A DNA stretch of 45,552 bases from Candidatus Scatosoma sp. (GCA_045611525.1 JAZKXK010000086.1:1-45552); one strand, 5' to 3'; positions 1,981 to 44,944 are shown, counted from the first letter of the stretch. Made by a program: numbers and translations. Notes: generated from the sequence alone by a model not told the origin.

Positions 1981-4596
1981 ATGGCTAAAAAAGAAACCAG
2001 CCCCGAATTGACCGAGGAGTTTAAGAAAACGCTCCAAATGACGAAAATGCTCGATATCGAGGTAGACGACGAGCTGAAGCGCTCGTTCATCGCCTACGCG
2101 ATGGCGGTCAACAAATCTCGCGCTATCCCCGACGTCCGCGACGGTTTGAAGCCCGTGCATAGAAGAATTTTATATTCCATGCACGAAATGGGCTTGTACA
2201 ACGATAAGGCGACCCGTAAGTGCGCCCGTATCGTCGGCGACTGTATGGGTAAATACCACCCCCACGGCGACAGCTCGGTATACGACGCGCTCGTGCGTTT
2301 GGCGCAGGATTTCACCATCAATTTCCCGCTCGTTTACGGGCACGGTAACTTCGGCAGCGTGGACGGCGACAGCGCGGCGGCTATGCGTTACACCGAGGCA
2401 AAGCTTTCCAAGCTGGCGGCGGAAATGCTCAAAGACTTGGACAAGGAAACGGTGGACTTTATCCCCAACTTCGACGGCAGCGAGGAAGAACCCACGGTAT
2501 TGCCCGCAAGATATCCCAACCTTTTGGTGAACGGCGCGGATGGTATCGCGGTAGGTATGGCGACGAATATCCCGCCCCACAACCTCGCGGAAGTCATCGA
2601 CGGCACGATTGCCATGATTGACAATCCCGAAATCACCGTGGACGAGCTGATGGAATATATCCCCGCGCCCGACTTCCCTACGGGCGGTTTGATTATGGGC
2701 AGAAGCGGTATCAAGCGCGCGTACAGAACGGGTCAGGGCAACCTCGTTATCCGTTCCAAGTGCGAAATCGAGGATTACGGCACGGGCGCGAACACCCGTT
2801 CCCGTATCGTCGTAACGGAAATCCCTTACCAAGTGAATAAGGCTCAGCTTATCAAAACGATTGCGGATATGGTAAACGACAAGCGCTTAGAGGGCATCTC
2901 CGATATCCGCGACGAATCGGGCAGAGACGGTATGCGTATCGTTATCGAATGTAAAAAGGACGCAAACGCGCAGGTCGTACTCAACACCCTCTATAAAAAG
3001 ACGAAATTGCAAATTTCCGACGGTATTATTTTGCTCGCGCTCGTGGAAAACGGTACCGAGCCTAAGACCTTGAACCTTCGCGAAATTTTATATTATTATT
3101 TGGAACACCAAAAGGAAGTCATCACGAGAAGAACGCGCTTTGAGCTGAACAAGACGGAAGAGCGCGCGCACATTATCGCGGGCTTGGTTTTGGCGCTTGC
3201 AAACGTAGACGAGGTTATTCGCATCATCAAGGCGTCGGCGGACAAGAACGCGGCAATTGAGGGCTTGACCTCGGCGTTCGAGCTGGATGACAAGCAAGCC
3301 AACGCGATTTTGGAAATGCGCTTGCAAAGACTGACCTCGTTGGAAGTCGAAAAGCTCAAGGACGAGCTTGCGGCGCTCCACGCGACGATTGCCGACCTTA
3401 AGGACATTCTTGCCAACGAGAGCCGCGTAATGGCGATTATTCGCGAGGATTTGTGTACGATCAAGGAAAAGTACCCCTCGGTAAGAAAATCGGAAATTTC
3501 CGTAGATTACGGCAATATCGACGACGAGGACTTGATTGATAGAGAGGACGTCGTTATCACGATTACCCACGGCGGGTATATCAAGCGCTTGCCCGTTGAG
3601 GAATACAGAGCGCAGGGCAGAGGCGGCAGAGGTATTACGGGACATAGACCCAAGGAAGAGGACTACGTCGAAAAAATGTTCGTTTGCTGCACGCACGACC
3701 CGATTTTGCTCTTCTCTTCTAAGGGTAAGGTGTACTCTATCAAGGGCTACGAAATCCCCGAGGCGAACAGAACGGCAAGGGGCAGAGCAGTCGTCAATAT
3801 CGTACAGCTTGACCAAGGCGAGAAGATAGAGGCGGTGCTCCCCGTGCTGGAAAACGGAACGGGTTACCTCGTAATGGCAACCGAAAGAGGCTTGATTAAG
3901 AAGACCCACACGGACGAGTTCAAGCGTATCGCAAAGAACGGTAAGATTGCGATTAAATTGCAAGAAAACGACCGTTTGATTTCCGTAGGCTTTACCACGG
4001 GCGACAACGAGATTTTGATTGCCTCACGCGAGGGTAAATGTATCCGCTTTGCAGAAACGGACGTTCGTGCAACGGGCAGAGGCACGCAGGGCGTAAGAGC
4101 CATCAACCTTGCCAAGAACGATATCGCGGTAGATATGCTGATTATCGACCCCGCGTTCGACTTGTTCACGCTTACCTCGCTTGGGTACGGCAAACGCTCC
4201 AAGGTAGAGGATTACAGATTGCAAACCCGCGGCGGTAAGGGTATCAAGGCAGGTATCTTCAACGAAAAGACGGGACACCTCGTCAACCTCAAACCCGTAA
4301 CGGACGAAAACGATATCATGATTATCACGACGGGCGGTACGATTATCCGTATGCACGCCGACACGATTAGCTGTATCGGCAGAAGCACCAGAGGCGTACG
4401 CGTAATGAACGTTAAGGACAGCGAGGTAGCCACCGTCGATATCACCGAACGCGACGACGAGGCGGAAACGCAAGCGCCCGAAGAAACGGCGGCGGATTTA
4501 AGCCCTGAGGACTTGGCAGGCGATACGGAAGTCGAAGAAATCGAAGAAGTAGTGCTTGACGAAGAGGTAGAAGAAACCCCTGCGGACGAGGAGTAA
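1981..4596 (+). CDS. gyrA: DNA gyrase subunit A, with an acidic C-terminal tail
   Basis: 871-aa ORF with RAIPDVRDGLKPVHRRILY, the active-site region AAMRYTEAKL and C-terminal beta-pinwheel repeats. The last ~45 aa are D/E-rich. AGGAGG RBS at ~1965. Confidence 0.97.
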   Translation: MAKKETSPELTEEFKKTLQMTKMLDIEVDDELKRSFIAYAMAVNKSRAIPDVRDGLKPVHRRILYSMHEMGLYNDKATRKCARIVGDCMGKYHPHGDSSVYDALVRLAQDFTINFPLVYGHGNFGSVDGDSAAAMRYTEAKLSKLAAEMLKDLDKETVDFIPNFDGSEEEPTVLPARYPNLLVNGADGIAVGMATNIPPHNLAEVIDGTIAMIDNPEITVDELMEYIPAPDFPTGGLIMGRSGIKRAYRTGQGNLVIRSKCEIEDYGTGANTRSRIVVTEIPYQVNKAQLIKTIADMVNDKRLEGISDIRDESGRDGMRIVIECKKDANAQVVLNTLYKKTKLQISDGIILLALVENGTEPKTLNLREILYYYLEHQKEVITRRTRFELNKTEERAHIIAGLVLALANVDEVIRIIKASADKNAAIEGLTSAFELDDKQANAILEMRLQRLTSLEVEKLKDELAALHATIADLKDILANESRVMAIIREDLCTIKEKYPSVRKSEISVDYGNIDDEDLIDREDVVITITHGGYIKRLPVEEYRAQGRGGRGITGHRPKEEDYVEKMFVCCTHDPILLFSSKGKVYSIKGYEIPEANRTARGRAVVNIVQLDQGEKIEAVLPVLENGTGYLVMATERGLIKKTHTDEFKRIAKNGKIAIKLQENDRLISVGFTTGDNEILIASREGKCIRFAETDVRATGRGTQGVRAINLAKNDIAVDMLIIDPAFDLFTLTSLGYGKRSKVEDYRLQTRGGKGIKAGIFNEKTGHLVNLKPVTDENDIMIITTGGTIIRMHADTISCIGRSTRGVRVMNVKDSEVATVDITERDDEAETQAPEETAADLSPEDLAGDTEVEEIEEVVLDEEVEETPADEE

Positions 4597-4618
4597 ACGC
4601 ATACATGGTATAGAGGAA

Positions 4619-4654
4619 CCCCCTGAATTGCAACTGCAATTCAGGGGGTTTGTT
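4619..4654 (+). terminator. Intrinsic terminator-like hairpin after gyrA
   Basis: CCCCCTGAATTGC-aact-GCAATTCAGGGGG is a 13-bp perfect stem followed by TTTGTT. A near-identical hairpin recurs at 5472-5499. Confidence 0.6.
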
Positions 4655-4655
4655 A

Positions 4656-4798
4656 GTGAAGTTTTTTGCTACGCAAAAAGTTGCGGGAATATTAATAACA
4701 GCCATAACTTGCCCCATAGGGGCAAACTTTACTTTCCGCAAAGCGGAAAACTTAACTTGAGTTATCAAACTTCTCTTTGCCGTCAGGCAAAACTTAAC
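4656..4798. repeat. Hairpin-ladder repeat, copy E1 (GTGAAGTT / AACTTnAC variant)
   Basis: One GTGAAGTT at 4656, then a centre GTTGCGGGAATATTAATAACA. Four short hairpins follow (GCCCC-ata-GGGGC, TTCCGC-aaa-GCGGAA, TTGA-gtta-TCAA, TTTGCC-gtca-GGCAAA), each followed by AACTT(T/A)AC. Confidence 0.7.
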
Positions 4799-4805
4799 TA
4801 TAAAA

Positions 4806-5030
4806 TTAATATTCCTTTTCGCGTTCTACGCAAAGGATTTCGTTAGCGTCTAAATCCAACGCCACGCAAAGCCGTGCAAGCGTATCCAACGCGGGGAGAG
4901 TTTTACCGTGTAAATAGCAAGATATTTGTTGTTGCCGAACGCCGATTTTCAGGGCGATTTCCTGTTGGGTCATACCGCTTTGTGTAATAGCTTCCGCGAG
5001 CTTTTTGGAAATATGGGTCGCTGTTATCAT
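4806..5030 (-). CDS. XRE-family helix-turn-helix transcriptional regulator
   Basis: 74-aa ORF with the typical HTH_3 core GMTQQEIALKIGVRQQQISCYLHGKTLPALDTLARLCVAL. Divergent from a second XRE gene. Confidence 0.8.
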   Translation of the reverse strand: MITATHISKKLAEAITQSGMTQQEIALKIGVRQQQISCYLHGKTLPALDTLARLCVALDLDANEILCVEREKEY

Positions 5031-5085: not shown

Positions 5086-5115
5086 TTGACTTACATGTGT
5101 TGCATGTAATATAAT
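5086..5115 (+). promoter_or_regulatory. Sigma-A-like promoter with an operator palindrome in the spacer
   Basis: TTGACT (5086-5091), 18-nt spacer, TATAAT (5110-5115). The spacer is the inverted repeat TTACATG-tgttg-CATGTAA (5091-5109). Confidence 0.5.
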
Positions 5116-5140
5116 GAATGATGGAAAAAAGGAGAAAAGT

Positions 5141-5464
5141 ATGGAATACGAAAGATTTTTAGAAAAAATAAGGCAATTAAGAGTAGAAAAGAGGATATCT
5201 TGTAAGAAAATGGGGGAAGCGTTGGGGATATCGTACGCTCAATATGCGAACATTGAGAATGGAAAGAGCAGACTTAAAGTGGAAGATTTATTTACGGTAT
5301 GTAAGGTGTTAGAGGTACAGCCTAAATTTTTATTTGACGACGGCAGTATTAAATTAAAGGAATACTATGCGATAATCGAGGGCTTAAAGAAATTAAGAAA
5401 CCGTGATTTCCGCATCATAAAAGATTTGATTATGCTTATGAGCCTAAATTCTGACGATTTGTAA
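5141..5464 (+). CDS. XRE-family helix-turn-helix protein
   Basis: The ORF track starts at 5114, but that ATG overlaps the -10 box. The ATG at 5141 has GGAG 6 nt upstream. HTH core ISCKKMGEALGISYAQYANIENGKSRLKVEDLFTVCKVL. Confidence 0.8.
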   Translation: MEYERFLEKIRQLRVEKRISCKKMGEALGISYAQYANIENGKSRLKVEDLFTVCKVLEVQPKFLFDDGSIKLKEYYAIIEGLKKLRNRDFRIIKDLIMLMSLNSDDL

Positions 5465-5471
5465 AGCAAAA

Positions 5472-5505
5472 CCCCCGATTGCAACTGCAATTCAGGGGGT
5501 TTTTA
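5472..5505 (+). terminator. Intrinsic terminator, near-copy of the 4619-4648 hairpin
   Basis: CCCCCGATTGC-aact-GCAATTCAGGGGG followed by TTTTT. Confidence 0.6.
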
Positions 5506-5506
5506 G

Positions 5507-5678
5507 GTGAAGTTTTTACTTTGTAAAAGTGAATTGTCCGTTGGACGTGAATTGCGCCTTGAGGCACGTGAATTGTCTTGCTTTGCAAGACGTTGTGGAA
5601 ATATTACAATAATGCCGACGGAGTCGGCAATTCACGAAAAGCATAGCTTTTCAATTCACGCAAGACAACAAAGTTGTC
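5507..5678. repeat. Hairpin-ladder repeat, copy E2
   Basis: GTGAAGTT at 5507 and GTGAATTG at 5529, 5547 and 5568, each followed by a mini-hairpin. Centre CGTTGTGGAAATATTACAATAA. CAATTCAC at 5628 and 5652, each preceded by a mini-hairpin. The core is near-identical to 35135-35200. Confidence 0.8.
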
Positions 5679-8224
5679 TACTCGTCGGCAGGGTTCATCA
5701 TATCGAACGCCTTTATCAAGAAGCCCGATATCGGGAAGGACGCCTGCACGATAATGACGATTAACAGGATTTGAGGTAAGGAGAAGTTGACAAGCTCCCA
5801 GCCTTCGAACACGAAATTGCCCAAAATCGGCGCGGATACGACGATAAAGCACATAGCCGCCGCTACGACGAACAGCACCGCGCGCAGCGCGTTAAAGGGC
5901 TGACAAATTCGATACAGCATCACCAAACCGCAGAAGGTCAAGGCAATCATCATAAGCCCTTGGTATTCCAAGGTTTCCACGCCGTTTGCGTCCATAAACC
6001 CAAAGGTGGACGAAAGGGAAGTGTTATGCATACAGAACAAGGTCAAAATGCCAAGCGCCATGGTAAACGCCCCCGGAATCGCCCTGCTTAGAACGTAGGG
6101 GATAAACTTGCCCTTAACGCGCGCCGTATTCGGCTGCAAGGAAAGCACCAAGGAGGGGATTGCGCTGATAAAGAACTCGTACATGAGCATATGGCTCGTT
6201 TCGAAGAAGTACTTATTCGAGAGGGCGATACACACCGTAGCAAGGGTGAGGATAAGCAGGGTTTTCATAATATACAGCGCGGACGAATCCTTGATGTTAT
6301 TGATAACCCGTCTGCCCTCGTTAACGATTTTGGGCATTGACCCGAAATTATTATCCTGCAAAACGAGGTTGGAAACGTTTCTCGCCGCCTCGCTGCCCGA
6401 GGCTACGGATACGGCGCAGTCCGCTTCCTTCATAGCCAAAATATCGTTTACGCCGTCCCCCGTCATCGCAACCGTATGCCCTGCCTTTTTGATAGAGCGT
6501 ATCAAGATTGCTTTTTGTTCGGGGGTAACCCGCCCAAATACCGTGTATTGATTTGCCGCCGTTTCCACTTCCAAATCGGACAAGCCCTCAAGGGAAATAA
6601 ACTGCGCGGCGTTTTGGATACCGGCTCTGCGGGCGACTTCGCTAACGGTTACGGGGTTGTCGCCCGAAATGACCTTGACGGCAACGTCGTTTTCTCTAAA
6701 CCATTTAATCGTTTGAATGGCGTCGGGACGGATATTGTCCGAAAGGGTGATAACGGCTACGGCGCGCAAGCCCGCGGGCAATTTATCACCTTGGATAGCC
6801 CCGCCTGCGTGCGCCAAAACCAGCACGCGCAAGCCCATTTGCGCGTATTGCTTGACAATCTTATCGATACGCACGGGTACGGGCTTTAACACGAATTCCG
6901 GCGCGCCAAGCACGTACGTACCCGCTTCTTCAAAGGTAACGGCGGAAAGCTTTCTCGCCGACGAGAAGGGCAGGGTCGCCATGGGTTGCAGCGCGGAAGA
7001 GTGTCCAAACCGTTCGTAAAGCGCAATCGAGGTTTGGTTGTTATCGTTCAAAGAGGCGAGCATAGAGCCTAAAATATCGTCCACGCCGAACTCGCCCGTG
7101 GCGTTGAGCAGGATACAATCGCTGACCTTCATACGCCCGTCCGTAATCGTACCCGTTTTATCGAGGCAGAGTACGTTGACGCGCGCCAGCATTTCAAGGG
7201 AGTACATATCCTGCACCAAGGTGTTGTACTTGGCAAGCCGTATCATACCCGTGGAAAGGGCAATCGTCGTCAAAAGGAGCAAGCCCGAGGGAATCATACC
7301 GATAACGACGGACGCGGTTTTTCTAATCGTTTCGCGCACGTCCTCGTTGCCCGCCATAAGGTTTTTCCAAAGCCCGCCGCTTGCTTGCAAATCCGCCCAG
7401 CTTCCGCCGATTTCCTTGTAGTTGGTAAAGAACATTAAAACGGCTACGGGGATAATGATAAAGCCGATAACGCGGATAAAGAGGGTGATAGAGTTCATAA
7501 TCTCCGAGTTGGGACGCTTATACTTCTTCGCCCTTGCCGTCAGCTTACTGATATAGGTATCCTCGCCGATTTTATCCACGCGCACGGCGATTTGACCGCT
7601 GGCGACGAACGAGCCTGCGTACAGCAAATCCCCGTCCTCTTTCTTAATGGGTACGGATTCGCCCGTGAGCAGGGATTCGTTCAGCTCCGCCATACCCTCT
7701 ACGGCAAAGCAGTCGGCGGGTACTTGCTGACCTGCGGAGAGGAGCAAAATATCGTCGATAACGATTTCCTCTACGGGAATTTCCACACGCTTGCCCCCGC
7801 GCACGACCTTGGCGGTGGGGGAGGAGAGAATGGACAGTTTATCCAGCTTTTTCTTCGCGCGGATTTCGAGTACGATGCTCACCATCGTATTGATGAGGAA
7901 GATAAATACGAATAAGTACTGCGAAAAGGGGGCGTTTGCAAGGAGCAGCGCAATCGCCGCAATCGCGCAAAGCAGGTTGAAGCCCGTGCAAAGATTGCCT
8001 ACGAAAATACTGCGGTAAGACTTAGAGTACTTTTTCCCCGATTTATTCACCAAGCCCTGTTCTACGCGTTCTTGCACCTGCGCGCGGGAAAGCCCCTCGC
8101 TTGCAAGGGCGTTAAAACGCTGAACGTCGGCTACGGGCGTAGGCGGTTTTTTCTTTTCTTTTTTCTTATGGAGCAGGGAGGCGAGCTTGCCTTCCTTTTC
8201 TTCGTGCTGTTCTTGGTTTTTCAT
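5678..8224 (-). CDS. Cation-transporting P-type ATPase (HAD-IC superfamily)
   Basis: Motifs LTGESVP, CLDKTGTITDG and MTGDGVNDILAMKEADCAV, with about 10 TM segments. Start moved to the ATG at 8224 (MKNQEQ...), which has AAGGAG upstream; the track start is 8260. Confidence 0.93.
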   Translation of the reverse strand: MKNQEQHEEKEGKLASLLHKKKEKKKPPTPVADVQRFNALASEGLSRAQVQERVEQGLVNKSGKKYSKSYRSIFVGNLCTGFNLLCAIAAIALLLANAPFSQYLFVFIFLINTMVSIVLEIRAKKKLDKLSILSSPTAKVVRGGKRVEIPVEEIVIDDILLLSAGQQVPADCFAVEGMAELNESLLTGESVPIKKEDGDLLYAGSFVASGQIAVRVDKIGEDTYISKLTARAKKYKRPNSEIMNSITLFIRVIGFIIIPVAVLMFFTNYKEIGGSWADLQASGGLWKNLMAGNEDVRETIRKTASVVIGMIPSGLLLLTTIALSTGMIRLAKYNTLVQDMYSLEMLARVNVLCLDKTGTITDGRMKVSDCILLNATGEFGVDDILGSMLASLNDNNQTSIALYERFGHSSALQPMATLPFSSARKLSAVTFEEAGTYVLGAPEFVLKPVPVRIDKIVKQYAQMGLRVLVLAHAGGAIQGDKLPAGLRAVAVITLSDNIRPDAIQTIKWFRENDVAVKVISGDNPVTVSEVARRAGIQNAAQFISLEGLSDLEVETAANQYTVFGRVTPEQKAILIRSIKKAGHTVAMTGDGVNDILAMKEADCAVSVASGSEAARNVSNLVLQDNNFGSMPKIVNEGRRVINNIKDSSALYIMKTLLILTLATVCIALSNKYFFETSHMLMYEFFISAIPSLVLSLQPNTARVKGKFIPYVLSRAIPGAFTMALGILTLFCMHNTSLSSTFGFMDANGVETLEYQGLMMIALTFCGLVMLYRICQPFNALRAVLFVVAAAMCFIVVSAPILGNFVFEGWELVNFSLPQILLIVIIVQASFPISGFLIKAFDMMNPADE

Positions 8225-8389
8225 GGTAAAAAACTCCTTATTGCCTACATTATAACACACGAATAGGAAAAATACAAGTTTTTTGCGTGAAAATCACAGG
8301 AAATCACGTTTAGGACTTTTCATTTAATTGCTTTTATTATACAAAAGTTGTATAATAGGGAAGATAAATCAAGTTTTTCGAGGTGTAAC

Positions 8390-9679: not shown

Positions 9680-9820
9680 AGCGTGTATATGCGTCGCATT
9701 TCATCGTCAGGCTTGCGGTTTGCCTCGCTCGTTTACGGATTAGTAAACTCCCGTCGGCAAATCCGCGCCTTCCTTGAACTGCTCGCATCTACCCACTTTA
9801 AGTGCGTACTGAATCTATAA

Positions 9821-16587: not shown

Positions 16588-17250
16588 ATGCAAAAATACA
16601 AGTATATTTTATTTGATTTAGACGGCACGCTGATTTATTCCCATCCGGGGATTTACGCTTGCTTTTATCACGCCTTAGAGAAAATCGGCTGGCAGCCGCC
16701 GACTGCGGAGCAGTTAAAGCTTTGTATCGGGCCGAGCCTTATGTATTCCTTCCAAAACTACTACGGCATGGACGAAAAAACGGCGTGGAAAGCCACGCAA
16801 ATCTACCGCGAGGAATACGGCAGAACGGGGGTATTGCAAAACGAACCCATTCCCGGCGCGGTCGAGCTTTTGCGGGATTTGAAAAACGCGGGCTATAAGC
16901 TTGCGATGGCGACCTCTAAGCCCGAAAAATACGCCCGCCAGATTGCGGATAGATTTGGGTTCTCGGCGTATTTTTGCGTACAAACGGGCTGTGGGTTTGA
17001 CGGCAGTTTTCCCACCAAAGCGTCCGTTATCGAGGAAACGATGAAACGGGCAGGGGCAACGGCAAAGGAGTGCCTTATGGTCGGGGACAGAAAGCACGAC
17101 AGCGAGGGCGCAAAGGAGATGGGCGTGGACTGCGCTTTACTTAAAATCGGCTACGCGGAAAGCGCGGACGAATACGAAAAGGCAACCCCTAAGTATATCT
17201 TTGACGGGTTTGACGAATTAAGGGAATTTCTTATAAAAAAGGACGGCTGA
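16588..17250 (+). CDS. HAD-superfamily hydrolase (phosphoglycolate phosphatase-like)
   Basis: Motif I ILFDLDGTL, motif II MATSKP, motif IV MVGDRKHD. The stop codon TGA is the loop of the terminator hairpin. Confidence 0.88.
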   Translation: MQKYKYILFDLDGTLIYSHPGIYACFYHALEKIGWQPPTAEQLKLCIGPSLMYSFQNYYGMDEKTAWKATQIYREEYGRTGVLQNEPIPGAVELLRDLKNAGYKLAMATSKPEKYARQIADRFGFSAYFCVQTGCGFDGSFPTKASVIEETMKRAGATAKECLMVGDRKHDSEGAKEMGVDCALLKIGYAESADEYEKATPKYIFDGFDELREFLIKKDG

Positions 17251-17750
17251 GCCGTCCTTTTTTGTGATATTTTTATTTTGCAAAAGAGCAAAATATGAAA
17301 AATTTTAACATCTTTCAAGAAAAAATATTTTTTGAGATAGCTTATGGAAAAAATTCCCTTTTCTATGGTATAATATATACAATAAATATTTATTTTTCGG
17401 AGGAGAGAAATGAAAAAACTCAAGAAGTACTAGTTTTCAACGTTGGCACTTGTCCTGACGATGGTCGTTGGGGCATATTATGCGCTTAGTTGTTTCTTTT
17501 CGGTAAAGCGTGAAGAAGTAATCGCAAGCGTAAGAACTGTTCAATTAAACGATACTGAAATGGATTATCAAGCAATATTGAACGAATTTGAGGATTCCGA
17601 ATTGACCACGGAAGGCTCGCTCACAACCTTTACGGGTTATCAAACCCTTAATTCTTCGCTTTTTGAGGGAATTGACAACGTAAGCGAAAGCGATGTTGAA
17701 GTTTTAGACGAGTGTAACGTTGGATATAAGTTTACATATGACTACGAAAA
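17155..17750 (+). repeat. Direct repeat copy 1 (about 600 bp; partner at 19460-20055)
   Basis: Colinear at a constant +2305 offset with scattered substitutions and no net indel. Covers the HAD 3' end, terminator, promoter, RBS and the first ~113 codons of the paralog gene. Confidence 0.9.
17235..17263 (+). terminator. Intrinsic terminator of the HAD gene
   Basis: AAAAAAGGACGGC-TGA-GCCGTCCTTTTTT. Confidence 0.75.
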
Positions 17751-19459: not shown

Positions 19460-19555
19460 GCGGAAAGCGCGGACGAATACGAAAAAGCAAACCCCGAATA
19501 TATCTTTGACGGGTTTGACGAATTAAGGGAATTTCTTATAAAAAAGGACGGCTGA
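19460..19555 (+). pseudogene. Orphan 3' fragment of the HAD hydrolase gene, with a duplicated terminator
   Basis: Encodes ...AESADEYEKANPEYIFDGFDELREFLIKKDG*, matching the last ~31 codons of 16588-17250. There is no upstream coding part. Confidence 0.8.
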
Positions 19556-20055
19556 GCCGTCCTCTTTTGCGATATGTTTATTTTGCAAAAGAGCAAAATA
19601 TGAAAAATTTTAACATCTTTCAAGAAAAAATATTTTCTAATATTTTTTATGGAAAAATCTTCCTTTGCTATGGTATAATATATACAATAAATATTTATTT
19701 TTCGGAGGAGAGAAATGAAAAAACTCAAGAAGTACTGGTTTTCAACGTTGGCACTTGTCCTGACGATGGTCGTCGGGGCATACTATGCGCTTAGTTGTTT
19801 CTTTTCGGTAAACCGTGGAGAAGTAAACGCAAGCGTAAGAACCGTTCAATTAAGCGATACCGAAATGGATTATCAAGCAATATTGAACGAATTTGAGGAC
19901 TCCGAGCTGACCACGGAAGGCTCGCTCACAACCTTTACGGGTTATCAACCCCTTGATTCTTCGCTTTTTGAAGGAATCGATAACGTAAGCGAGAGCGACG
20001 TCGAAGTCTTAAAAGGGTGCAAAGTAGGTTATAAGTTTACATATGACTACGAAAG
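19460..20055 (+). repeat. Direct repeat copy 2 (partner of 17155-17750)
   Basis: See copy 1. Beyond ~20055, similarity persists only at the protein level, to about codon 185. Confidence 0.9.
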
Positions 20056-34563: not shown

Positions 34564-35043
34564 ATGAAAAAGACGGTCATTATAGCCATTTTGCTTATCT
34601 ATTTAGGCTCTATCGTACTTGTAAACTTCTTCGGCTTGAACGTGAAGAATTTCGAGGGTACGAAATACGTAGAGAGTATCACCTGCGAGGTTATCCATAG
34701 AGGGGAAGACCCCAAGGAAATCAAAGCGGTGCAAGACCCTACGGACGACGTTGTTTGGCAGATTTTTGATTTTATCCCCGGGTATTACGACGAAACGAAT
34801 ATAGACGCTAACCCGAACACGGTGCAGATTTTACCGCACGTATACCCCGAAACGGCGGATAATACGGAAGTAAAGCTTATCTACGATAAGGAAACGACCA
34901 GCGAATATTGTCACGTTAACGAAACGGCAAAAACGGTCACCTTTTTAGAGCCCGACAGAGGTATCACGATTGAAATCGTAGCGGCGGACGGTTCTAATAT
35001 AAAGACGAAGGTATTCATCTTACCGAGAACGCCTAAGCATTGA
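34564..35043 (+). CDS. Small N-terminally anchored extracytoplasmic protein, unknown function
   Basis: 159 aa with TM VIIAILLIYLGSIVLVNFF followed by a beta-rich domain. Starts 5 nt after the permease stop. Confidence 0.55.
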   Translation: MKKTVIIAILLIYLGSIVLVNFFGLNVKNFEGTKYVESITCEVIHRGEDPKEIKAVQDPTDDVVWQIFDFIPGYYDETNIDANPNTVQILPHVYPETADNTEVKLIYDKETTSEYCHVNETAKTVTFLEPDRGITIEIVAADGSNIKTKVFILPRTPKH

Positions 35044-35044
35044 T

Positions 35045-35072
35045 AAAAAAGCTCCCCGTGGGGAGCTTTTTT
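35045..35072 (+). terminator. Intrinsic terminator
   Basis: AAAAAA-GCTCCC-cgtg-GGGAGC-TTTTTT. Confidence 0.8.
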
Positions 35073-35073
35073 A

Positions 35074-35286
35074 GTGAATTGTGAACTTTGTTCACGTGAA
35101 TTGTACCTAACGGTACGTGAATTGTCCGTTGGACGTGAATTGCGCCTTGAGGCGGGTGAATTGTCTTGCGTAGCAAGACGTTGTGGAAATATTACAATAA
35201 CGGCAACGAAGTTGCCAATTCACGACGGCTATGCCGTCAATTCACGGCGTAAGCCAATTCACGAAAAGCAAAGCTTTTCAATTCAC
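35074..35286. repeat. Hairpin-ladder repeat, copy E3 (most complete)
   Basis: GTGAATTG at 35074, 35096, 35117, 35135 and 35156. Centre CGTTGTGGAAATATTACAATAA (35179-35200). CAATTCAC at 35216, 35238, 35255 and 35279. Every inter-unit spacer is a 3-6 bp hairpin. Confidence 0.85.
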
Positions 35287-35385
35287 GTTTATCCCGTCAT
35301 AAAAATACATGACAAAAAAAGCTTGCCAAACAAAAATATATATAGTATAATGTAAATACAAAATTTACAATAGGTAGGTTTTACT

Positions 35386-37770
35386 ATGAGAAAAATCAAG
35401 AAAATTCTTGCGGCAACCATGGCGTTGACCATGCTTGTTTCCGCAACGGGTATTACCGCTTGTGATTTCGGCGGTTCCCGTGAGCTCACGGCAATCGTTA
35501 TCGCAAACGGTTCCTATGACGCAAGCTATACCTTAAACGAAACGGTTAGCTTTGCAGACATCGTTATCACGGCAAAGTATAACGACGCGTCCACTGAGGG
35601 CATCGATTTTAGTAAGGTGAAAGTATTCCTTGCAGGCGAGGATATCACGAACAACCTTAACAAAATCACCGAAAGCGTAGGTACCAAGCTTGTAACGATT
35701 GAATACGAGGGCAAAACGGCTAAGCTTACGATTACCGTATCCACCGACGTAGGCGGCGGCGACGTAACCGAACCCGTTATCGTTTCCGGCTTTGAAGCGC
35801 CCAGCGCGTACACCACCCACCTTTCCAAAAAAGCAGCGGCAGGCAAAACGGCGTACACCAAAGAAAAAGGCACGCAAAAGAACGCTTACGAAACGGAATT
35901 CGCGAAAGGCGACGATATGTTCATGGCAGGCGACGACAACGAATTCAAGTTCTTGCCCACTCTTCGTTTCTTGGACGCAAACGACCAGCCCGAAACGGCG
36001 ACGAAATTCCCTTCGACGACGACGGTTAGCCTTCATAACGGCACCGAATACGGCGCGCTTGAAAGCAGAGCGAAAGAGGGCGCAGAAGGCGTTGTAGAAT
36101 ACTTTGAAGGCGACACCGTATACCTTACGGCAAACACCGAAAACAACACCTACGATTTCGCAGACGCGGCAATCGGCAAGCAGTTCAAACTTGCAGTTCT
36201 TCCTGCAGGCAACTTCCAGTACACGGGTACGAAATCGGTAGACTGCGAAGTGAAGGTAGTAGACGGCTTCAACGTATACACCGCAAAACAGCTCGGCGTT
36301 ATCGACAACGACTACGTTGATGTGAATCAAGACCCGAATAGCTTAGCGCCCAGAGACGGCGCTTGGGACGATATCAAAGTGGCGGAAGGCTTGGTAGGCG
36401 TTAACCCCACGGCGGTTATTTTCCAAAACGATATCACTATGACCAAGGACGATATTCCCGCAGCGATGCAATATACGCTTACGGATAAAGAGGTCGTATA
36501 CTACGAAGACGCTGACGCGCAAACCAAGGAAAATCCTATCGCAGGTTCTAACACCTTCCTCTACGACTATCTCAACAGCAGCAAGGTTATGCACAATTCC
36601 AACACTATCTTGTATCGTTCGATTGCAGAAGGCGAAAGCTTTGCTATCTACGGCAACTACTTCAATCTCGACTTGTCGAAAGTACCTCTTGTAGCGTCCT
36701 TCGGTACGGATGAGGGCAACACCTTTGAAGACGGCTACGGCAGCGATACCTCTAACGCGTCCTTCCTTGTAGTGGACGGCGTAGGTACGGACGAGACGCC
36801 TACCGCAGGCGGCAACTTTGCGATTAAAAATCTTGACGTAAAGGGCAACGCAAACATTGAACAGCACGTTTACGTGACCAAGAGCGGCGATAAGAAAGCG
36901 GTATACGCAGGCGGTTTGATTTTCGTTAAAACGGGCGGCTTATATACGAACATTGAAAACGTACTCGCGCGTACCTTCTTCATTCCTCTTATGCCTCACG
37001 GTAAGGGCGAAGTAGCAACCTATAGAAACGTTAAGGTATACGATTCCTATCAGGACGCAGCGTTCATTTGGGGTAAGAACACCATTGCTTTTGAAAACTG
37101 CAATTTTGAAAGAGCAGGCGGCCCCTTGATGATTGCACAGGATATCGATCCTGAAGAACCCACTCTTAACAACTTCCCCACCATTACGGCGGACGAAAAC
37201 AGCAACTTCGTGAACATGGTCACGGGTCAAGAGTTCTGGTTCAACCTCTTTGGCGCACAATCACAAATCGCGAGTATAAGAGCCTTGGATCAACTGTTCG
37301 CATATATGGAAATTCCTAAGGCGGTTACTTCCGAGGATAAGATGAACATGGTTCTCCTTTCCATGCCTATCGGTTCTGATTTAAGTATTATCGGCCAGTA
37401 TCAAGCGCAAATTTCCTTCACCTACACGAAGGGCGACAAGGCGTATGCGCTTGACAGAGTAAATAACAGAGCGAACTGGATGACGGAGCTTCCCGATACC
37501 GTTGGTGAAAAGGTACACGACACGTTGGCTATCTTCAAATCGCAGTATAGTCGAGACGGTATGGTATTCAATGCCGGCGATGCAATGGGGTATATGACGA
37601 GTGATACGTCTGCTTCCTTGGGTTATATAACGGCGCAAGGTCCCGTTTCCTTAACTCAGCAAGAACAACTTGTATACGCGCAGGGCTTTGCGGCAAGCGA
37701 ATATCTTTCTATCAACTTCGGTGGGTTCGGCTTGTTCCTTGAATTCTTTACAACGCAACCTCAAGCTTAA
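35386..37770 (+). CDS. Secreted lipoprotein with an N-terminal Ig-like domain and a possible beta-helix region
   Basis: MRKIKKILAATMALTMLVSATGITAC lipobox. An Ig-like segment ends KLTITV. Later repeats resemble parallel beta-helix rungs (low confidence). Promoter TTGCCA-17-TATAAT at ~35322-35350. Confidence 0.85.
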   Translation: MRKIKKILAATMALTMLVSATGITACDFGGSRELTAIVIANGSYDASYTLNETVSFADIVITAKYNDASTEGIDFSKVKVFLAGEDITNNLNKITESVGTKLVTIEYEGKTAKLTITVSTDVGGGDVTEPVIVSGFEAPSAYTTHLSKKAAAGKTAYTKEKGTQKNAYETEFAKGDDMFMAGDDNEFKFLPTLRFLDANDQPETATKFPSTTTVSLHNGTEYGALESRAKEGAEGVVEYFEGDTVYLTANTENNTYDFADAAIGKQFKLAVLPAGNFQYTGTKSVDCEVKVVDGFNVYTAKQLGVIDNDYVDVNQDPNSLAPRDGAWDDIKVAEGLVGVNPTAVIFQNDITMTKDDIPAAMQYTLTDKEVVYYEDADAQTKENPIAGSNTFLYDYLNSSKVMHNSNTILYRSIAEGESFAIYGNYFNLDLSKVPLVASFGTDEGNTFEDGYGSDTSNASFLVVDGVGTDETPTAGGNFAIKNLDVKGNANIEQHVYVTKSGDKKAVYAGGLIFVKTGGLYTNIENVLARTFFIPLMPHGKGEVATYRNVKVYDSYQDAAFIWGKNTIAFENCNFERAGGPLMIAQDIDPEEPTLNNFPTITADENSNFVNMVTGQEFWFNLFGAQSQIASIRALDQLFAYMEIPKAVTSEDKMNMVLLSMPIGSDLSIIGQYQAQISFTYTKGDKAYALDRVNNRANWMTELPDTVGEKVHDTLAIFKSQYSRDGMVFNAGDAMGYMTSDTSASLGYITAQGPVSLTQQEQLVYAQGFAASEYLSINFGGFGLFLEFFTTQPQA

Positions 37771-38933: not shown

Positions 38934-40127
<1,194 letters not shown>

Positions 40128-41279: not shown

Positions 41280-41348
41280 GTGTAAAGAGTGGGGTACAGG
41301 TACGCGTTGAAAATAAAACGACCCTACCATGTACGCATTGAAAATAAT

Positions 41349-41383
41349 ATAGGCAGGTATGCGTTCAACGCGTACCTGCCTAT
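41349..41383. terminator. Long hairpin terminator of glyQS (bidirectional)
   Basis: ATAGGCAGGTATGCG-ttcaa-CGCGTACCTGCCTAT, about 15 bp with one G-U. A T-run follows on the minus strand. Confidence 0.7.
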
Positions 41384-44724: not shown

Positions 44725-44944
44725 CGGGAAGTCCAGAAACTCAGTTTCTGGCGGGTTGCAAGGGTAGAACCCTTGCGCCTCAACGGCAGTCGTTGCGCGC
44801 AAGCGTAAAACCGTACCCCAAAAAGCAAAACGCCAGAGGCGTTAAGACGCAACCTATCGGTTGCTTATAAGTGTACCATATCGCGGGGCTCTGCCCCTGC
44901 ACCCCGCAAGAGGCAGCGCCTCTTGACACCAACCAGAGAGAACT

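What the first reader, a model, noticed from the sequence alone, without database searches (positions are those of the whole stretch)
35074..35286. Hairpin-ladder repeat: constant 8-mers alternating with variable mini-hairpins, mirrored around a central loop
Five direct GTGAATTG units lie at 35074, 35096, 35117, 35135 and 35156. Each is followed by a different 3-6-bp hairpin (TGAAC-ttt-GTTCA, TACC-taa-CGGTA, TCC-gtt-GGA, CGCC-ttga-GGCG, TCTTGC-gta-GCAAGA). A centre CGTTGTGGAAATATTACAATAA follows. Then come four CAATTCAC units (35216, 35238, 35255, 35279), each preceded by a different hairpin (GGCAAC-gaa-GTTGCC, GACGGC-tat-GCCGTC, GGC-gtaa-GCC, AAAAGC-aaa-GCTTTT). Unit spacing is 17-24 nt, about two helical turns. 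The hairpin sequences differ while pairing is always kept, so the hairpins themselves are under selection. If transcribed, GUGAAUUG/CAAUUCAC pairing would form a long helix studded with side hairpins. As DNA it would be a phased array of 8-bp sites on one helix face, or a cruciform. Copies E2 (5507-5678) and E1 (4656-4798, a GTGAAGTT/AACTTAAC variant) show it is a dispersed family. Each copy starts with T(T)AG(G)TGAA immediately after a terminator T-run. It is not CRISPR and I do not recognise it as a described REP, BIME, BOX, ERIC or Correia-type element.
Basis: seen in the sequence. Interest (0 to 1): 0.62.

Follow-up and report, generated by a model that had tools for sequence, protein, structure and literature searches.

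The report
Mirrored mini-hairpin repeat, Gut-1 relative
The hairpin ladder is real and is one copy of a multi-copy intergenic repeat of uncultured gut Clostridia whose arms belong to the little-known 'Gut-1 RNA motif' family; the evidence suggests a REP-like DNA repeat rather than an RNA gene.

Summary
GTGAATTG occurs 14 times in the window against 1.3 expected, and every occurrence lies in E3 (35074-35286) or E2 (5507-5659). E1 (4656-4798) is a diverged copy.

The same architecture recurs in about 40 loci of gut Clostridia MAGs. It is a 7-nt linker plus a G...C-closed mini-hairpin, repeated 3-5 times. A conserved polar centre (CGTTGYGG..AT-rich..WTAACG) follows, then the mirror-image arm. Of 178 inter-linker spacers, 152 are distinct and 90% are hairpins, with heavy covariation.

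It is not undescribed. The arms match Rfam Gut-1 (RF01706) at 30-33 bits, below the cut-off of 50. A homologous element with the identical centre scores 51-53 bits. The 2010 Gut-1 seed sequences show the same terminator, arm, centre and mirrored arm.

The long ladder helix and helical phasing are not supported. Arm numbers differ, linker variants are uncompensated, and periods run 16-25 nt.

The following point to a REP/REPIN/BIME-like DNA repeat, not an sRNA:
- mirrored loop bias;
- no G·U excess;
- either orientation relative to genes;
- placement directly behind terminators;
- filled versus empty orthologous sites;
- a 13-44x depth peak in DNA runs with no such peak in metatranscriptomes.

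The copying mechanism is unknown.

The parts
35045..35072 (+). E3: terminator-like palindrome AAAAAAGCTCCCCGTGGGGAGCTTTTTT of the upstream 159-aa gene (34564-35043). The element starts 1 nt after its T-run.
   Evidence: The consensus terminator scan does not list it because the A-run and T-run pair.
35074..35178 (+). E3 left arm: five units of GTGAATT plus a G..C-closed mini-hairpin (stems 4-7 bp, loops TTT, TAAC, GTT, TTGA, GTA).
   Evidence: Positions 35094-35167 match Rfam Gut-1 over the full model length at 30.2 bits.
35179..35200 (+). E3 polar centre CGTTGTGGAAATATTACAATAA(CG). It is the best conserved part of the family.
   Evidence: The 24-mer is identical in L057, L115 and L119, which come from other species.
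35201..35286 (+). E3 right arm: four units of mini-hairpin plus AATTCAC, the mirror image of the left arm (loops GAA, TAT, GTAA, AAA).
35323..35351 (+). Context, not part of the element: the promoter-like site TTGCCA-17-TATAAT of the downstream lipoprotein-like gene (35386-37770). E3 therefore lies between a terminator and a promoter.
   Evidence: 11 of 12 consensus matches
5468..5504 (+). E2: terminator-like hairpin whose stem contains the linker pair (GATTGCA..GCAATTC). It is 82% identical to the one before E1.
   Evidence: (repeat D7)
5507..5590 (+). E2 left arm: one GTGAAGT unit and three GTGAATT units.
   Evidence: Positions 5505-5579 match Gut-1 at 33.4 bits.
5591..5612 (+). E2 centre, identical to that of E3.
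5613..5659 (+). E2 right arm: two hairpin-plus-AATTCAC units. It runs into the 3' end of the convergent P-type ATPase gene (5678-8260, - strand).
4619..4654 (+). E1: terminator-like hairpin CCCCCTGAATTGCAACTGCAATTCAGGGGG plus TTTGTT, after gyrA (1981-4596).
4656..4798 (+). E1, a diverged copy: one GTGAAGT unit, the centre GTTGCGGGAATATTAATAACAG (4680-4701), and a right arm of four hairpins with AACTTNAC linkers.

Best explanation
Shown:
- E3, E2 and E1 are copies of a lineage-specific, multi-copy, mirror-symmetric intergenic repeat of uncultured gut and rumen Clostridia.
- Each arm is an array of modules. A module is a 7-nt linker (GTGAATT here; GTGAAAT or GTGATAT in relatives) plus a G..C-closed mini-hairpin.
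- Hairpin stems co-vary. Within a genome the stems are conserved and the loops are hypervariable.
- The two arms are true inverted copies around a conserved polar centre.
- The arms belong to the Gut-1 motif family (RF01706). The window copies are a sub-threshold variant of it.

Inferred, and my preferred mechanism:
- The element works and spreads as DNA, in the manner of REP/REPIN/BIME elements.
- What is recognised, and therefore conserved, is the linker plus the foot and stem of a hairpin formed in single-stranded DNA.
- Whole elements are copied into, lost from or replaced at intergenic sites, often immediately behind a terminator T-run. A trans-acting enzyme that I could not identify would do this.
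- Copies whose stems or linkers decay leave no descendants. Loops drift freely.
- Any RNA hairpins made when a copy happens to lie inside a transcript would be a by-product, or a secondary use such as mRNA-end protection or insulation.
For: Family and architecture: searches give about 40 loci and 22 elements with the polar centre.

Hairpins are conserved as structures:
- 90% of 178 spacers have a perfect stem of 3 bp or more. 58% have 5 bp or more, against 0.8% of shuffles.
- On 47 units of equal length, 95% of cells pair against 60% in shuffles. The covariation score is 0.857 against 0.197, and slid controls pair at 25-44%.

Membership of the Gut-1 family:
- The window arms score 30.2 and 33.4 bits over the full model.
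- In L119 the right arm of an element with the identical 24-nt centre scores 51.0 bits, and a second arm scores 52.9. The cut-off is 50.
- The Gut-1 seed sequences with flanks show terminator, arm, centre and mirrored arm.

DNA rather than RNA:
- Loop bias is mirrored between the arms. On the GTGAATT strand the first loop base is T in 95 of 137 units and the closing pair is C-G in 115 of 137. The right arm shows the reverse complement, with GNA and GNNA loops.
- Stems are almost purely Watson-Crick. There are 6 T.G-type against 8 C.A/A.C-type oppositions in 742 pairs, so no G.U signature on either strand.
- Elements lie in either orientation and in all intergenic types.
- E3 sits between a terminator and the next promoter.
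- DNA runs show a 13-44x depth peak on the element. Metatranscriptome contigs show none, with depth at or below that of neighbouring genes.

Gain, loss and copying:
- L115 has an element where the orthologous 60-nt spacer of L010 has none.
- L010 and L039 carry elements at the same site with opposite centre orientation and different hairpins.
- After gyrA, only the window and its closest relative L120 carry elements. About 60 relatives with 67-87% GyrA identity do not.
- Four paralogues in MAG SIG406 share the same order of eight hairpins. Their identity is 97% in linkers, 93% in stems, 89% in the centre and 51% in loops.
Against: - No transposase, RAYT-like gene or any recurrent neighbouring gene was found.
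- No consistent target-site duplication was found.
- Complete genomes could not be scanned, so copying is inferred from the distribution of copies and was not observed.
- At least eight copies fill the whole spacer between co-directional genes or abut an RBS and start codon (L039, L069, L113, L022, L005). These copies must be transcribed, so an RNA role cannot be excluded.
- Conserved stems with variable loops could equally reflect host-level selection on each copy.
- The RNA-depth argument rests on assembled contigs of unmatched samples. Hairpin-rich RNA is also poorly reverse transcribed.
- Some metatranscriptome contigs do contain element ends.
Confidence: 0.5

Rival explanations
1. It is a structured non-coding or cis-acting RNA, as Rfam files Gut-1 (type 'Gene; sRNA'). 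The hairpin array, possibly the full ladder of four-way junctions, would be the functional transcript. It might be a protein sponge, or a processing or stability element in UTRs.
For: - Very stable predicted folds, z = -9.
- Strong covariation.
- Weinberg et al. 2010 rated Gut-1 a likely RNA.
- Several copies lie in positions that must be transcribed, directly upstream of an RBS.
- Metatranscriptome contigs contain element ends followed by an RBS.
Against: - The opposite strand folds equally well.
- Loop bias is mirrored, so one transcript cannot present both arms in the same form.
- There is no G.U excess.
- Elements lie in either orientation relative to genes.
- No promoter is conserved.
- Copies sit directly behind terminators.
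- RNA contigs show no multi-copy peak, although DNA runs show 13-44x.
- Ladder pairing is not conserved.
Confidence: 0.2
2. It is a host-serving DNA or transcript punctuation element, as REP/BIME elements are thought to be. It would be kept behind terminators to insulate neighbouring transcription units, absorb supercoiling by extruding hairpins, or block 3' exonucleases on read-through RNA.
For: - Copies abut the terminator T-run in all three window copies and in L002, L020, L065, L120 and the Gut-1 seeds.
- In some subfamilies the terminator-like hairpin is part of the repeat (E1/E2 repeat D7; the BAAZ seed sequences).
- Elements persist at the same site in different species, for example L022 and L115 upstream of the same gene.
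- Stems are conserved in every copy.
Against: - About 60 related genomes show no GTGAATT element in the 12-kb stretches around gyrA that were fetched.
- Orthologous sites are empty in relatives.
- Hairpin content turns over quickly.
- There is no functional test.
Confidence: 0.2
3. It is a double-stranded DNA array of 7-8 bp protein-binding sites, comparable to iterons, a centromere or transposon-end sites. The sites would be phased on one helix face around an AT-rich core.
For: - The linkers are invariant, direct in one arm and inverted in the other.
- The core is AT-rich and flanked by the inverted half-sites CGTTGYGGAA and TTCCWTAACG.
- The modal period is 21-22 bp.
Against: - The period varies from 16 to 25 bp, so phasing is not kept.
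- A duplex-binding model does not explain why the spacers are always palindromes of unrelated sequence.
- Tens of copies per genome is unlike an origin or a centromere.
Confidence: 0.1

Closest known systems
Gut-1 RNA motif (Rfam RF01706; Weinberg et al. 2010, Genome Biol 11:R31, PMC2864571)
   Same: - Three or more consecutive short hairpins separated by a constant GUGAAAU-type linker, with C-G-closed UUC/UUGC-type loops.
- A gut metagenome origin.
- In the seed flanks, a terminator followed by an arm, a centre and a mirrored arm.
- L119 carries an element with the window's exact centre whose other arm passes the Gut-1 cut-off.
   Different: - The window's linker is GUGAAUU, which differs at one position, and E1 uses GUGAAGU.
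- The window's arms score 30-33 bits against a cut-off of 50.
- Rfam models only one arm and calls it an sRNA.
- The mirrored whole element, the conserved centre, the multi-copy dispersed nature and the host lineage are not in the 2010 description that I could read.
REP / REPIN / BIME elements (REPIN definition from Bertels and Rainey 2011, PMC3116915)
   Same: - Short extragenic palindromes in high copy.
- Organised as inverted pairs or mosaics.
- Predicted hairpins in ssDNA or mRNA, with compensatory changes.
- Found near the 3' ends of genes.
- Gained and lost between relatives.
   Different: - REPs are 20-40 nt palindromes of conserved sequence with a GTAG-type tetranucleotide, and they go with a RAYT gene.
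- Here the constant part is a 7-nt linker.
- The palindromes are 9-18 nt, of many sequences, and arrayed 3-5 per arm.
- No RAYT has been seen.
Modular repeats such as pneumococcal BOX (A-Bn-C), Neisseria NIMEs, and the small dispersed repeats embedded in heptamer arrays of Nostoc. These are recalled from my own knowledge; the last is mentioned in PMC3116915.
   Same: - A modular build with a variable number of internal modules.
- Constant short motifs alternating with variable segments.
- Intergenic location and high predicted structure.
   Different: There is no sequence similarity. Module size, mirror symmetry, and the combination of variable palindromes with an invariant linker are distinctive. 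These comparisons rest on memory and were not tested here.

Membership tests
Gut-1 RNA motif (RF01706) | Covariance-model score at or above the curated gathering score of 50 bits | tested here: not met
   The window arms score 30.2 bits (35094-35167) and 33.4 bits (5505-5579), over the full model 1-77. Whole-window E-values are 0.051 and 0.0077. The homologous locus L119 does pass, at 51.0 and 52.9 bits.
Gut-1 RNA motif (RF01706) | Three consecutive hairpins separated by the conserved linker GUGAAAU | tested here: inconclusive
   The architecture is met. The linker is GUGAAUU, one base different, and GUGAAGU in E1. Both GTGAATT and GTGAAAT linkers occur within single elements (L010, L105, L119).
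Gut-1 RNA motif (RF01706) | Homology, meaning a shared element rather than convergence | tested here: met
   In L119 the left arm uses GTGAATT linkers, the 24-nt centre is identical to that of E3, and the right arm passes the Gut-1 cut-off. The Gut-1 seed flanks show mirrored arms.
Gut-1 RNA motif (RF01706) | Acts as a transcribed sRNA (Rfam type 'Gene; sRNA') | tested here: inconclusive
   RNA contigs show no multi-copy peak, whereas DNA runs show 13-44x. There is no G.U signature and no conserved promoter. Some copies must nevertheless be co-transcribed.
REP / REPIN / BIME | Extragenic, multi-copy palindromes in inverted arrangement that can form hairpins, with compensatory changes | tested here: met
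REP / REPIN / BIME | A 20-40 nt palindrome of conserved sequence with a GTAG-type 5' tetranucleotide | tested here: not met
   The palindromes are 9-18 nt and 152 of 178 are distinct. The constant part is the 7-mer GTGAATT.
REP / REPIN / BIME | A cognate single-copy RAYT (Y1/HUH) gene flanked by the repeats | not testable with these tools
   Only 8-kb loci could be read. No recurrent neighbouring gene appears among 40 loci. Whole genomes could not be scanned.
MITE (non-autonomous DDE element) | Terminal inverted repeats | tested here: met
   The ends read (A)AA-GTGAATTG ... CAATTCAC-TTT(T), and the whole arms are inverted.
MITE (non-autonomous DDE element) | A target-site duplication of fixed length | tested here: not met
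   The flanks of 23 complete elements show no consistent direct repeat. Only L020 has TTTTTTGC on both sides, and that lies within T-runs.
MITE (non-autonomous DDE element) | Filled and empty orthologous sites | tested here: met
   L115 is filled and L010 is empty. The window and L120 are filled, while the roughly 60 relatives with 67-87% GyrA identity have no GTGAATT element after gyrA (L122, L123, L126 and L180 run straight on to the ATPase gene). L010 and L039 carry elements at the same site in opposite orientation.
MITE (non-autonomous DDE element) | An autonomous partner element with the same ends | not testable with these tools
   None was seen in the loci.
CRISPR array | Direct repeats of 23-50 nt separated by unique, non-palindromic spacers, all in one orientation | tested here: not met
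   The repeat is 7-8 nt, the spacers are 9-18 nt palindromes, and the arms are inverted. Rfam gave only a chance-level CRISPR-DR hit elsewhere in the window, at 40018.
Iteron or centromere-like duplex binding array | Constant helical phasing of the sites | tested here: not met
   Periods range from 16 to 25 nt.

The most novel reading that the evidence does not exclude
The Gut-1-type arrays may be the cis-acting substrate of an unrecognised REP/RAYT-like system of Clostridia that acts on single-stranded DNA. An enzyme would read a 7-nt guide-like linker plus the foot of a mini-hairpin and copy whole mirrored elements to sites behind terminator T-runs. The hypervariable loops would be a footprint of hairpins that really form in vivo.
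Probability: 0.25. Interest if true: 0.7.

Novelty: new variant of a known kind. Interest (0 to 1): 0.5.

Why it matters
Gut-1 has sat in Rfam since 2010 as an orphan 'sRNA' known only from human gut metagenomes. It has had no host, no full-length definition and no function.

This window places the family in named gut and rumen Clostridia MAGs, including Candidatus Scatosoma, SIG403, SIG406, SIG410 and RGIG bins. It also shows three things:
- The Rfam model covers only one arm of a larger mirror-symmetric element with a conserved centre.
- The element behaves like a multi-copy genomic repeat.
- The repeat breaks short-read assemblies.

If a dedicated enzyme exists, this would extend REP/REPIN-type biology to Bacillota with a very different cis-element design. 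In practical terms, annotation pipelines should treat Gut-1 hits as repeats rather than as sRNA genes.

Tried and rejected
- Phage origin. blastn against phage records found nothing. The triple-linker pattern in IMG/VR gave 27 stretches, all plain tandem repeats without hairpin spacers. The centre pattern gave 2 chance matches.
- Many genome hits to the triple 8-mer are (GTGAATT)n 7-nt microsatellites or other tandem repeats in Bacteroidota and other phyla. They are unrelated and were set aside.
- Promoter inside the centre. Only weak, non-conserved sites of 9 of 12 matches were found.
- Target-site duplication. None was consistent.
- An associated protein. No gene recurs next to the elements.
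- G.U asymmetry to pick an RNA strand. None was found.
- Orientation of the polar centre relative to the upstream gene. The split was 14 to 7 with crude ORF calls, which is not convincing.
- Exact-protein look-up of the upstream 159-aa gene. It is not on record.
- Literature search for the 8-mer or for Gut-1 beyond the 2010 paper. Nothing relevant was found.
- CRISPR, iteron and long-ladder readings were rejected, as set out in the membership tests.
- The resemblance of the linker to half of a parS site comes from memory only. It was not tested and is not relied on.

Full report
**1. The observation**

The region reads exactly as described. GTGAATTG occurs 14 times in the 45,552-base window against 1.32 expected (largest shuffle value 5). 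All 14 lie in two places:
- E3 has five on + at 35074-35156 and four on - at 35216-35279.
- E2 has three on + and two on - at 5529-5659.

The 21-mer centre GTTGTGGAAATATTACAATAA is identical in both copies. Every spacer between units is a perfect mini-hairpin.

E3 with its terminator folds at -107.7 kcal/mol, z = -9.0. The opposite strand folds just as well, z = -9.3.

E1 (4656-4798) is a diverged copy. It has one GTGAAGT unit, the centre GTTGCGGGAATATTAATAACAG and four hairpins with AACTTNAC linkers.

All three copies start 1-2 nt after a terminator-like hairpin and T-run. The hairpins before E1 and E2 are 82% identical over 56 nt, and their stems contain the linker pair TGAATTG/CAATTCA.

The window is a bacterial chromosome. 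It carries gyrB, gyrA, two small HTH genes between E1 and E2, a P-type ATPase, and ABC transporter genes upstream of E3. It comes from a gut or rumen organism.

**2. The family**

Many are unrelated microsatellites.

About 40 loci show the same element. All are Clostridia MAGs:
- Clostridiales SIG403, SIG406 and SIG410;
- several Candidatus Scatosoma species;
- RGIG ruminant bins;
- a Hadza gut MAG;
- Christensenella sp. UBA3798.

The general form is (GTGAATT + hairpin) x 3-5, then CGTTG[TC]GG..AT-rich..(TTCC)WTAACG, then (hairpin + AATTCAC) x 3-5.

The centre is polar and conserved in 22 elements. The 24-mer of E3 is identical in L057, L115 and L119, which belong to other species. Half-elements also exist, made of one arm plus the first half of the centre.

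No relative was found in phage records or viral contigs.

**3. The hairpins are conserved as structures**

- Of 178 inter-linker spacers, 152 are distinct.
- They start with G in 168 cases and end with C in 167.
- 90% contain a perfect stem of 3 bp or more that covers 94% of the spacer on average.
- 58% have stems of 5 bp or more, against 0.8% of shuffled spacers.
- Loops are 3-4 nt.

On 47 units of equal length, 95.0% of cells pair against 60.1 +/- 2.3% in shuffles and 25-44% when partners are slid. Five of six pairs change on both sides. The covariation score is 0.857 against 0.197.

Within the window, E2 and E3 differ in one right-arm hairpin by two compensatory pairs: GCCGAC..GTCGGC against GGCAAC..GTTGCC. 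One left-arm loop is wholly different (TTT against GTA). The linkers and the centre are unchanged.

**4. Unit polarity, the ladder and phasing**

Read on the GTGAATT strand, the loop-closing pair is C-G in 115 of 137 units and the first loop base is T in 95 of 137. In complete elements this bias is mirrored. Left-arm loops are TNC-like. Right-arm loops on the same strand are GNA or GNNA-like, such as GAA, GCA, GTA, GTAA and GTTA. The arms are therefore true inverted copies at the unit level.

The long GUGAAUUG/CAAUUCAC ladder is the predicted minimum-energy fold, but comparison does not support it:
- Only 8 of 21 complete elements have equal numbers of units in the two arms.
- Where a linker varies, the partner does not follow. 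In L010 all four rungs are GTGAATT opposite ATTTCAC, and 9 of 10 variant rungs are mismatched.

Linker periods range from 16 to 25 nt, so helical phasing is not kept.

**5. It is related to a described family**

With permissive thresholds, Rfam gives one meaningful match. The left arms of E3 and E2 align end to end with Gut-1 (RF01706) at 30.2 and 33.4 bits, against a cut-off of 50.

The Gut-1 consensus is three hairpins separated by GUGAAAU, with C-G-closed UUC and UUGC loops.

Among family loci, L119 has two hits above the cut-off, at 51.0 and 52.9 bits. One of them is the right arm, with ATTTCAC linkers, of an element whose left arm uses GTGAATT and whose centre equals that of E3.

Weinberg et al. 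2010 say only that Gut-1 occurs in human gut metagenomes (43 representatives) and is probably a non-coding RNA. Their alignment file with flanks shows the same whole element in at least 6 of the 12 sequences I read. BAAZ01000095 reads terminator, (GUGAUAU + hairpin) x 3, centre, (hairpin + AUAUCAC) x 4. BAAV01002358 does the same with GUGAAAU and AUUUCAC. I found no later literature.

**6. Context, gain and loss**

Using crude gene calls, 20 elements lie between tandem genes, 9 between convergent genes and 6 between divergent genes. The polar centre points either way.

Many copies abut a terminator T-run. These include the window copies, L002, L020, L065, L120 and the Gut-1 seeds.

Others fill the spacer up to an RBS and start codon (L039, L069, L113, L022, L005). 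Those copies must be transcribed.

Orthologous comparisons:
- L115 has an element where L010 has a 60-nt spacer without one.
- L010 and L039 carry elements at the same site with opposite centre orientation and unrelated hairpins.
- L022 and L115 share a site and two hairpins but differ in the number of units.

After gyrA, only the window and its closest relative L120 (90% GyrA identity) have elements. In L120 the centre is split by about 215 nt. About 60 relatives with 67-87% identity have none. In L122, L123, L126 and L180, gyrA is followed after a few hundred nucleotides by the convergent ATPase gene.

No gene recurs next to the elements, and no consistent target duplication is seen.

**7. 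Paralogues within a genome**

Four SIG406 elements share the same eight hairpins in the same order. Pairwise identity is 97% in linkers, 93% in stems (with compensatory changes), 89% in the centre and only 51% in loops. The three SIG403 elements aligned also keep the linkers and the centre but share only some of their hairpins.

**8. RNA or DNA?**

- Stems are almost purely Watson-Crick. Among 742 pairs, 23 are non-standard, with 6 T.G-type against 8 C.A/A.C-type. Neither strand shows the G.U tolerance of a structured RNA.
- In DNA runs the element bins reach 13-44 times the depth of the flanks. Examples are 256.7 against 5.8, 64.5 against 2.8, and 152-199 against 10-17. This indicates tens of copies per genome equivalent.
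- In four metatranscriptome runs the same bins are at or below the depth of neighbouring genes, at 0-6.5.

Caveats: these are assembled contigs from unmatched samples, hairpins are hard to reverse transcribe, and a few RNA contigs do contain element ends.

E3 itself lies between a terminator and the 11-of-12 promoter of the next gene.

**9. Interpretation**

Shown:
- The feature is real.
- It is a member of a multi-copy, mirror-symmetric, modular repeat family of gut Clostridia.
- Its arms are a sub-threshold variant of Gut-1.
- The hairpins, the linkers and the centre are under constraint.
- Copies are gained, lost and replaced.

Inferred: it is a REP/REPIN/BIME-like DNA element recognised as linker plus hairpin in single-stranded DNA and copied by an unidentified enzyme. 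Under this view the loops drift because they do not matter for copying. I give this about 0.5.

Rivals are an RNA element (0.2), a host-serving terminator-associated punctuation element (0.2, partly compatible with the first) and a duplex protein-binding array (0.1).

**10. Novelty**

This is a new variant of a known kind. The motif family was described in 2010. The following appear to be new:
- the whole-element architecture;
- the conserved centre;
- the hosts;
- the behaviour as a repeat;
- the pattern of conserved stems with variable loops.

Noticed in passing
window 44725-44935: A second, different multi-hairpin intergenic repeat lies here. Its hairpins are ccagaaacTCAgtttctgg, aacgccAGAggcgtt, gcaaccTATCggttgc and caagaggcAGCgcctcttg, and it has no GTGAATT linkers. 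The same hairpins occur in L022 at 4150-4430 and 5618-5636.
   Followed up: partly
window 41290-41375; L120 about 3330-3400: A short repeat, CCATGTACGC(R)TTGAAAA, is present two to three times next to a terminator. It is also found beside the element of the closest relative.
   Followed up: no
window 4611-4666 and 5462-5517: A 56-nt direct repeat (82% identical) covers a terminator-like hairpin and the first GTGAAGT unit. The two copies bracket E1 and the two divergent HTH genes (4806-5030 on -, 5114-5464 on +). Relatives at 82% GyrA identity have neither the HTH genes nor the elements between gyrA and the ATPase gene.
   Followed up: partly
L002 2085-2125 and 6945-6985; L065 6843-6885; L020 about 3390-3425: Another widespread repeat, GTCATTCTGAGCGAAGCG..GCGCAGTCGAAGAATC, abuts or interrupts the elements in SIG406 and Scatosoma loci.
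   Followed up: no
many loci (for example L012, L049, L070, L100): (GTGAATT)n heptamer microsatellites occur in Bacteroidota, Chloroflexota and other MAGs. The heptamer is the same as the linker, but there are no hairpins.
   Followed up: partly
window 17155-17454 and 19460-19759: A 300-nt direct repeat (94% identical) covers the upstream regions and starts of two 393-aa paralogous ORFs. Similar terminators lie at 9816, 17232 and 19537.
   Followed up: no
L058, L075, L086 (Hadza MAG CAKQWM01): Here the linker-plus-hairpin units are interleaved with other repeat modules (for example CCCCTACCAGGTGAAGGC and GGCTTCACCCTGTGGGGGAAGCTGGC). They form larger mosaics rather than simple mirrored elements.
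   Followed up: no
window 35100-35156, run X1: Metagenome contigs skip 53-55 nt (two to three units) and carry other units in their place. These are either unit-number variants of this locus or paralogous copies. Assemblies break at the elements.
   Followed up: partly
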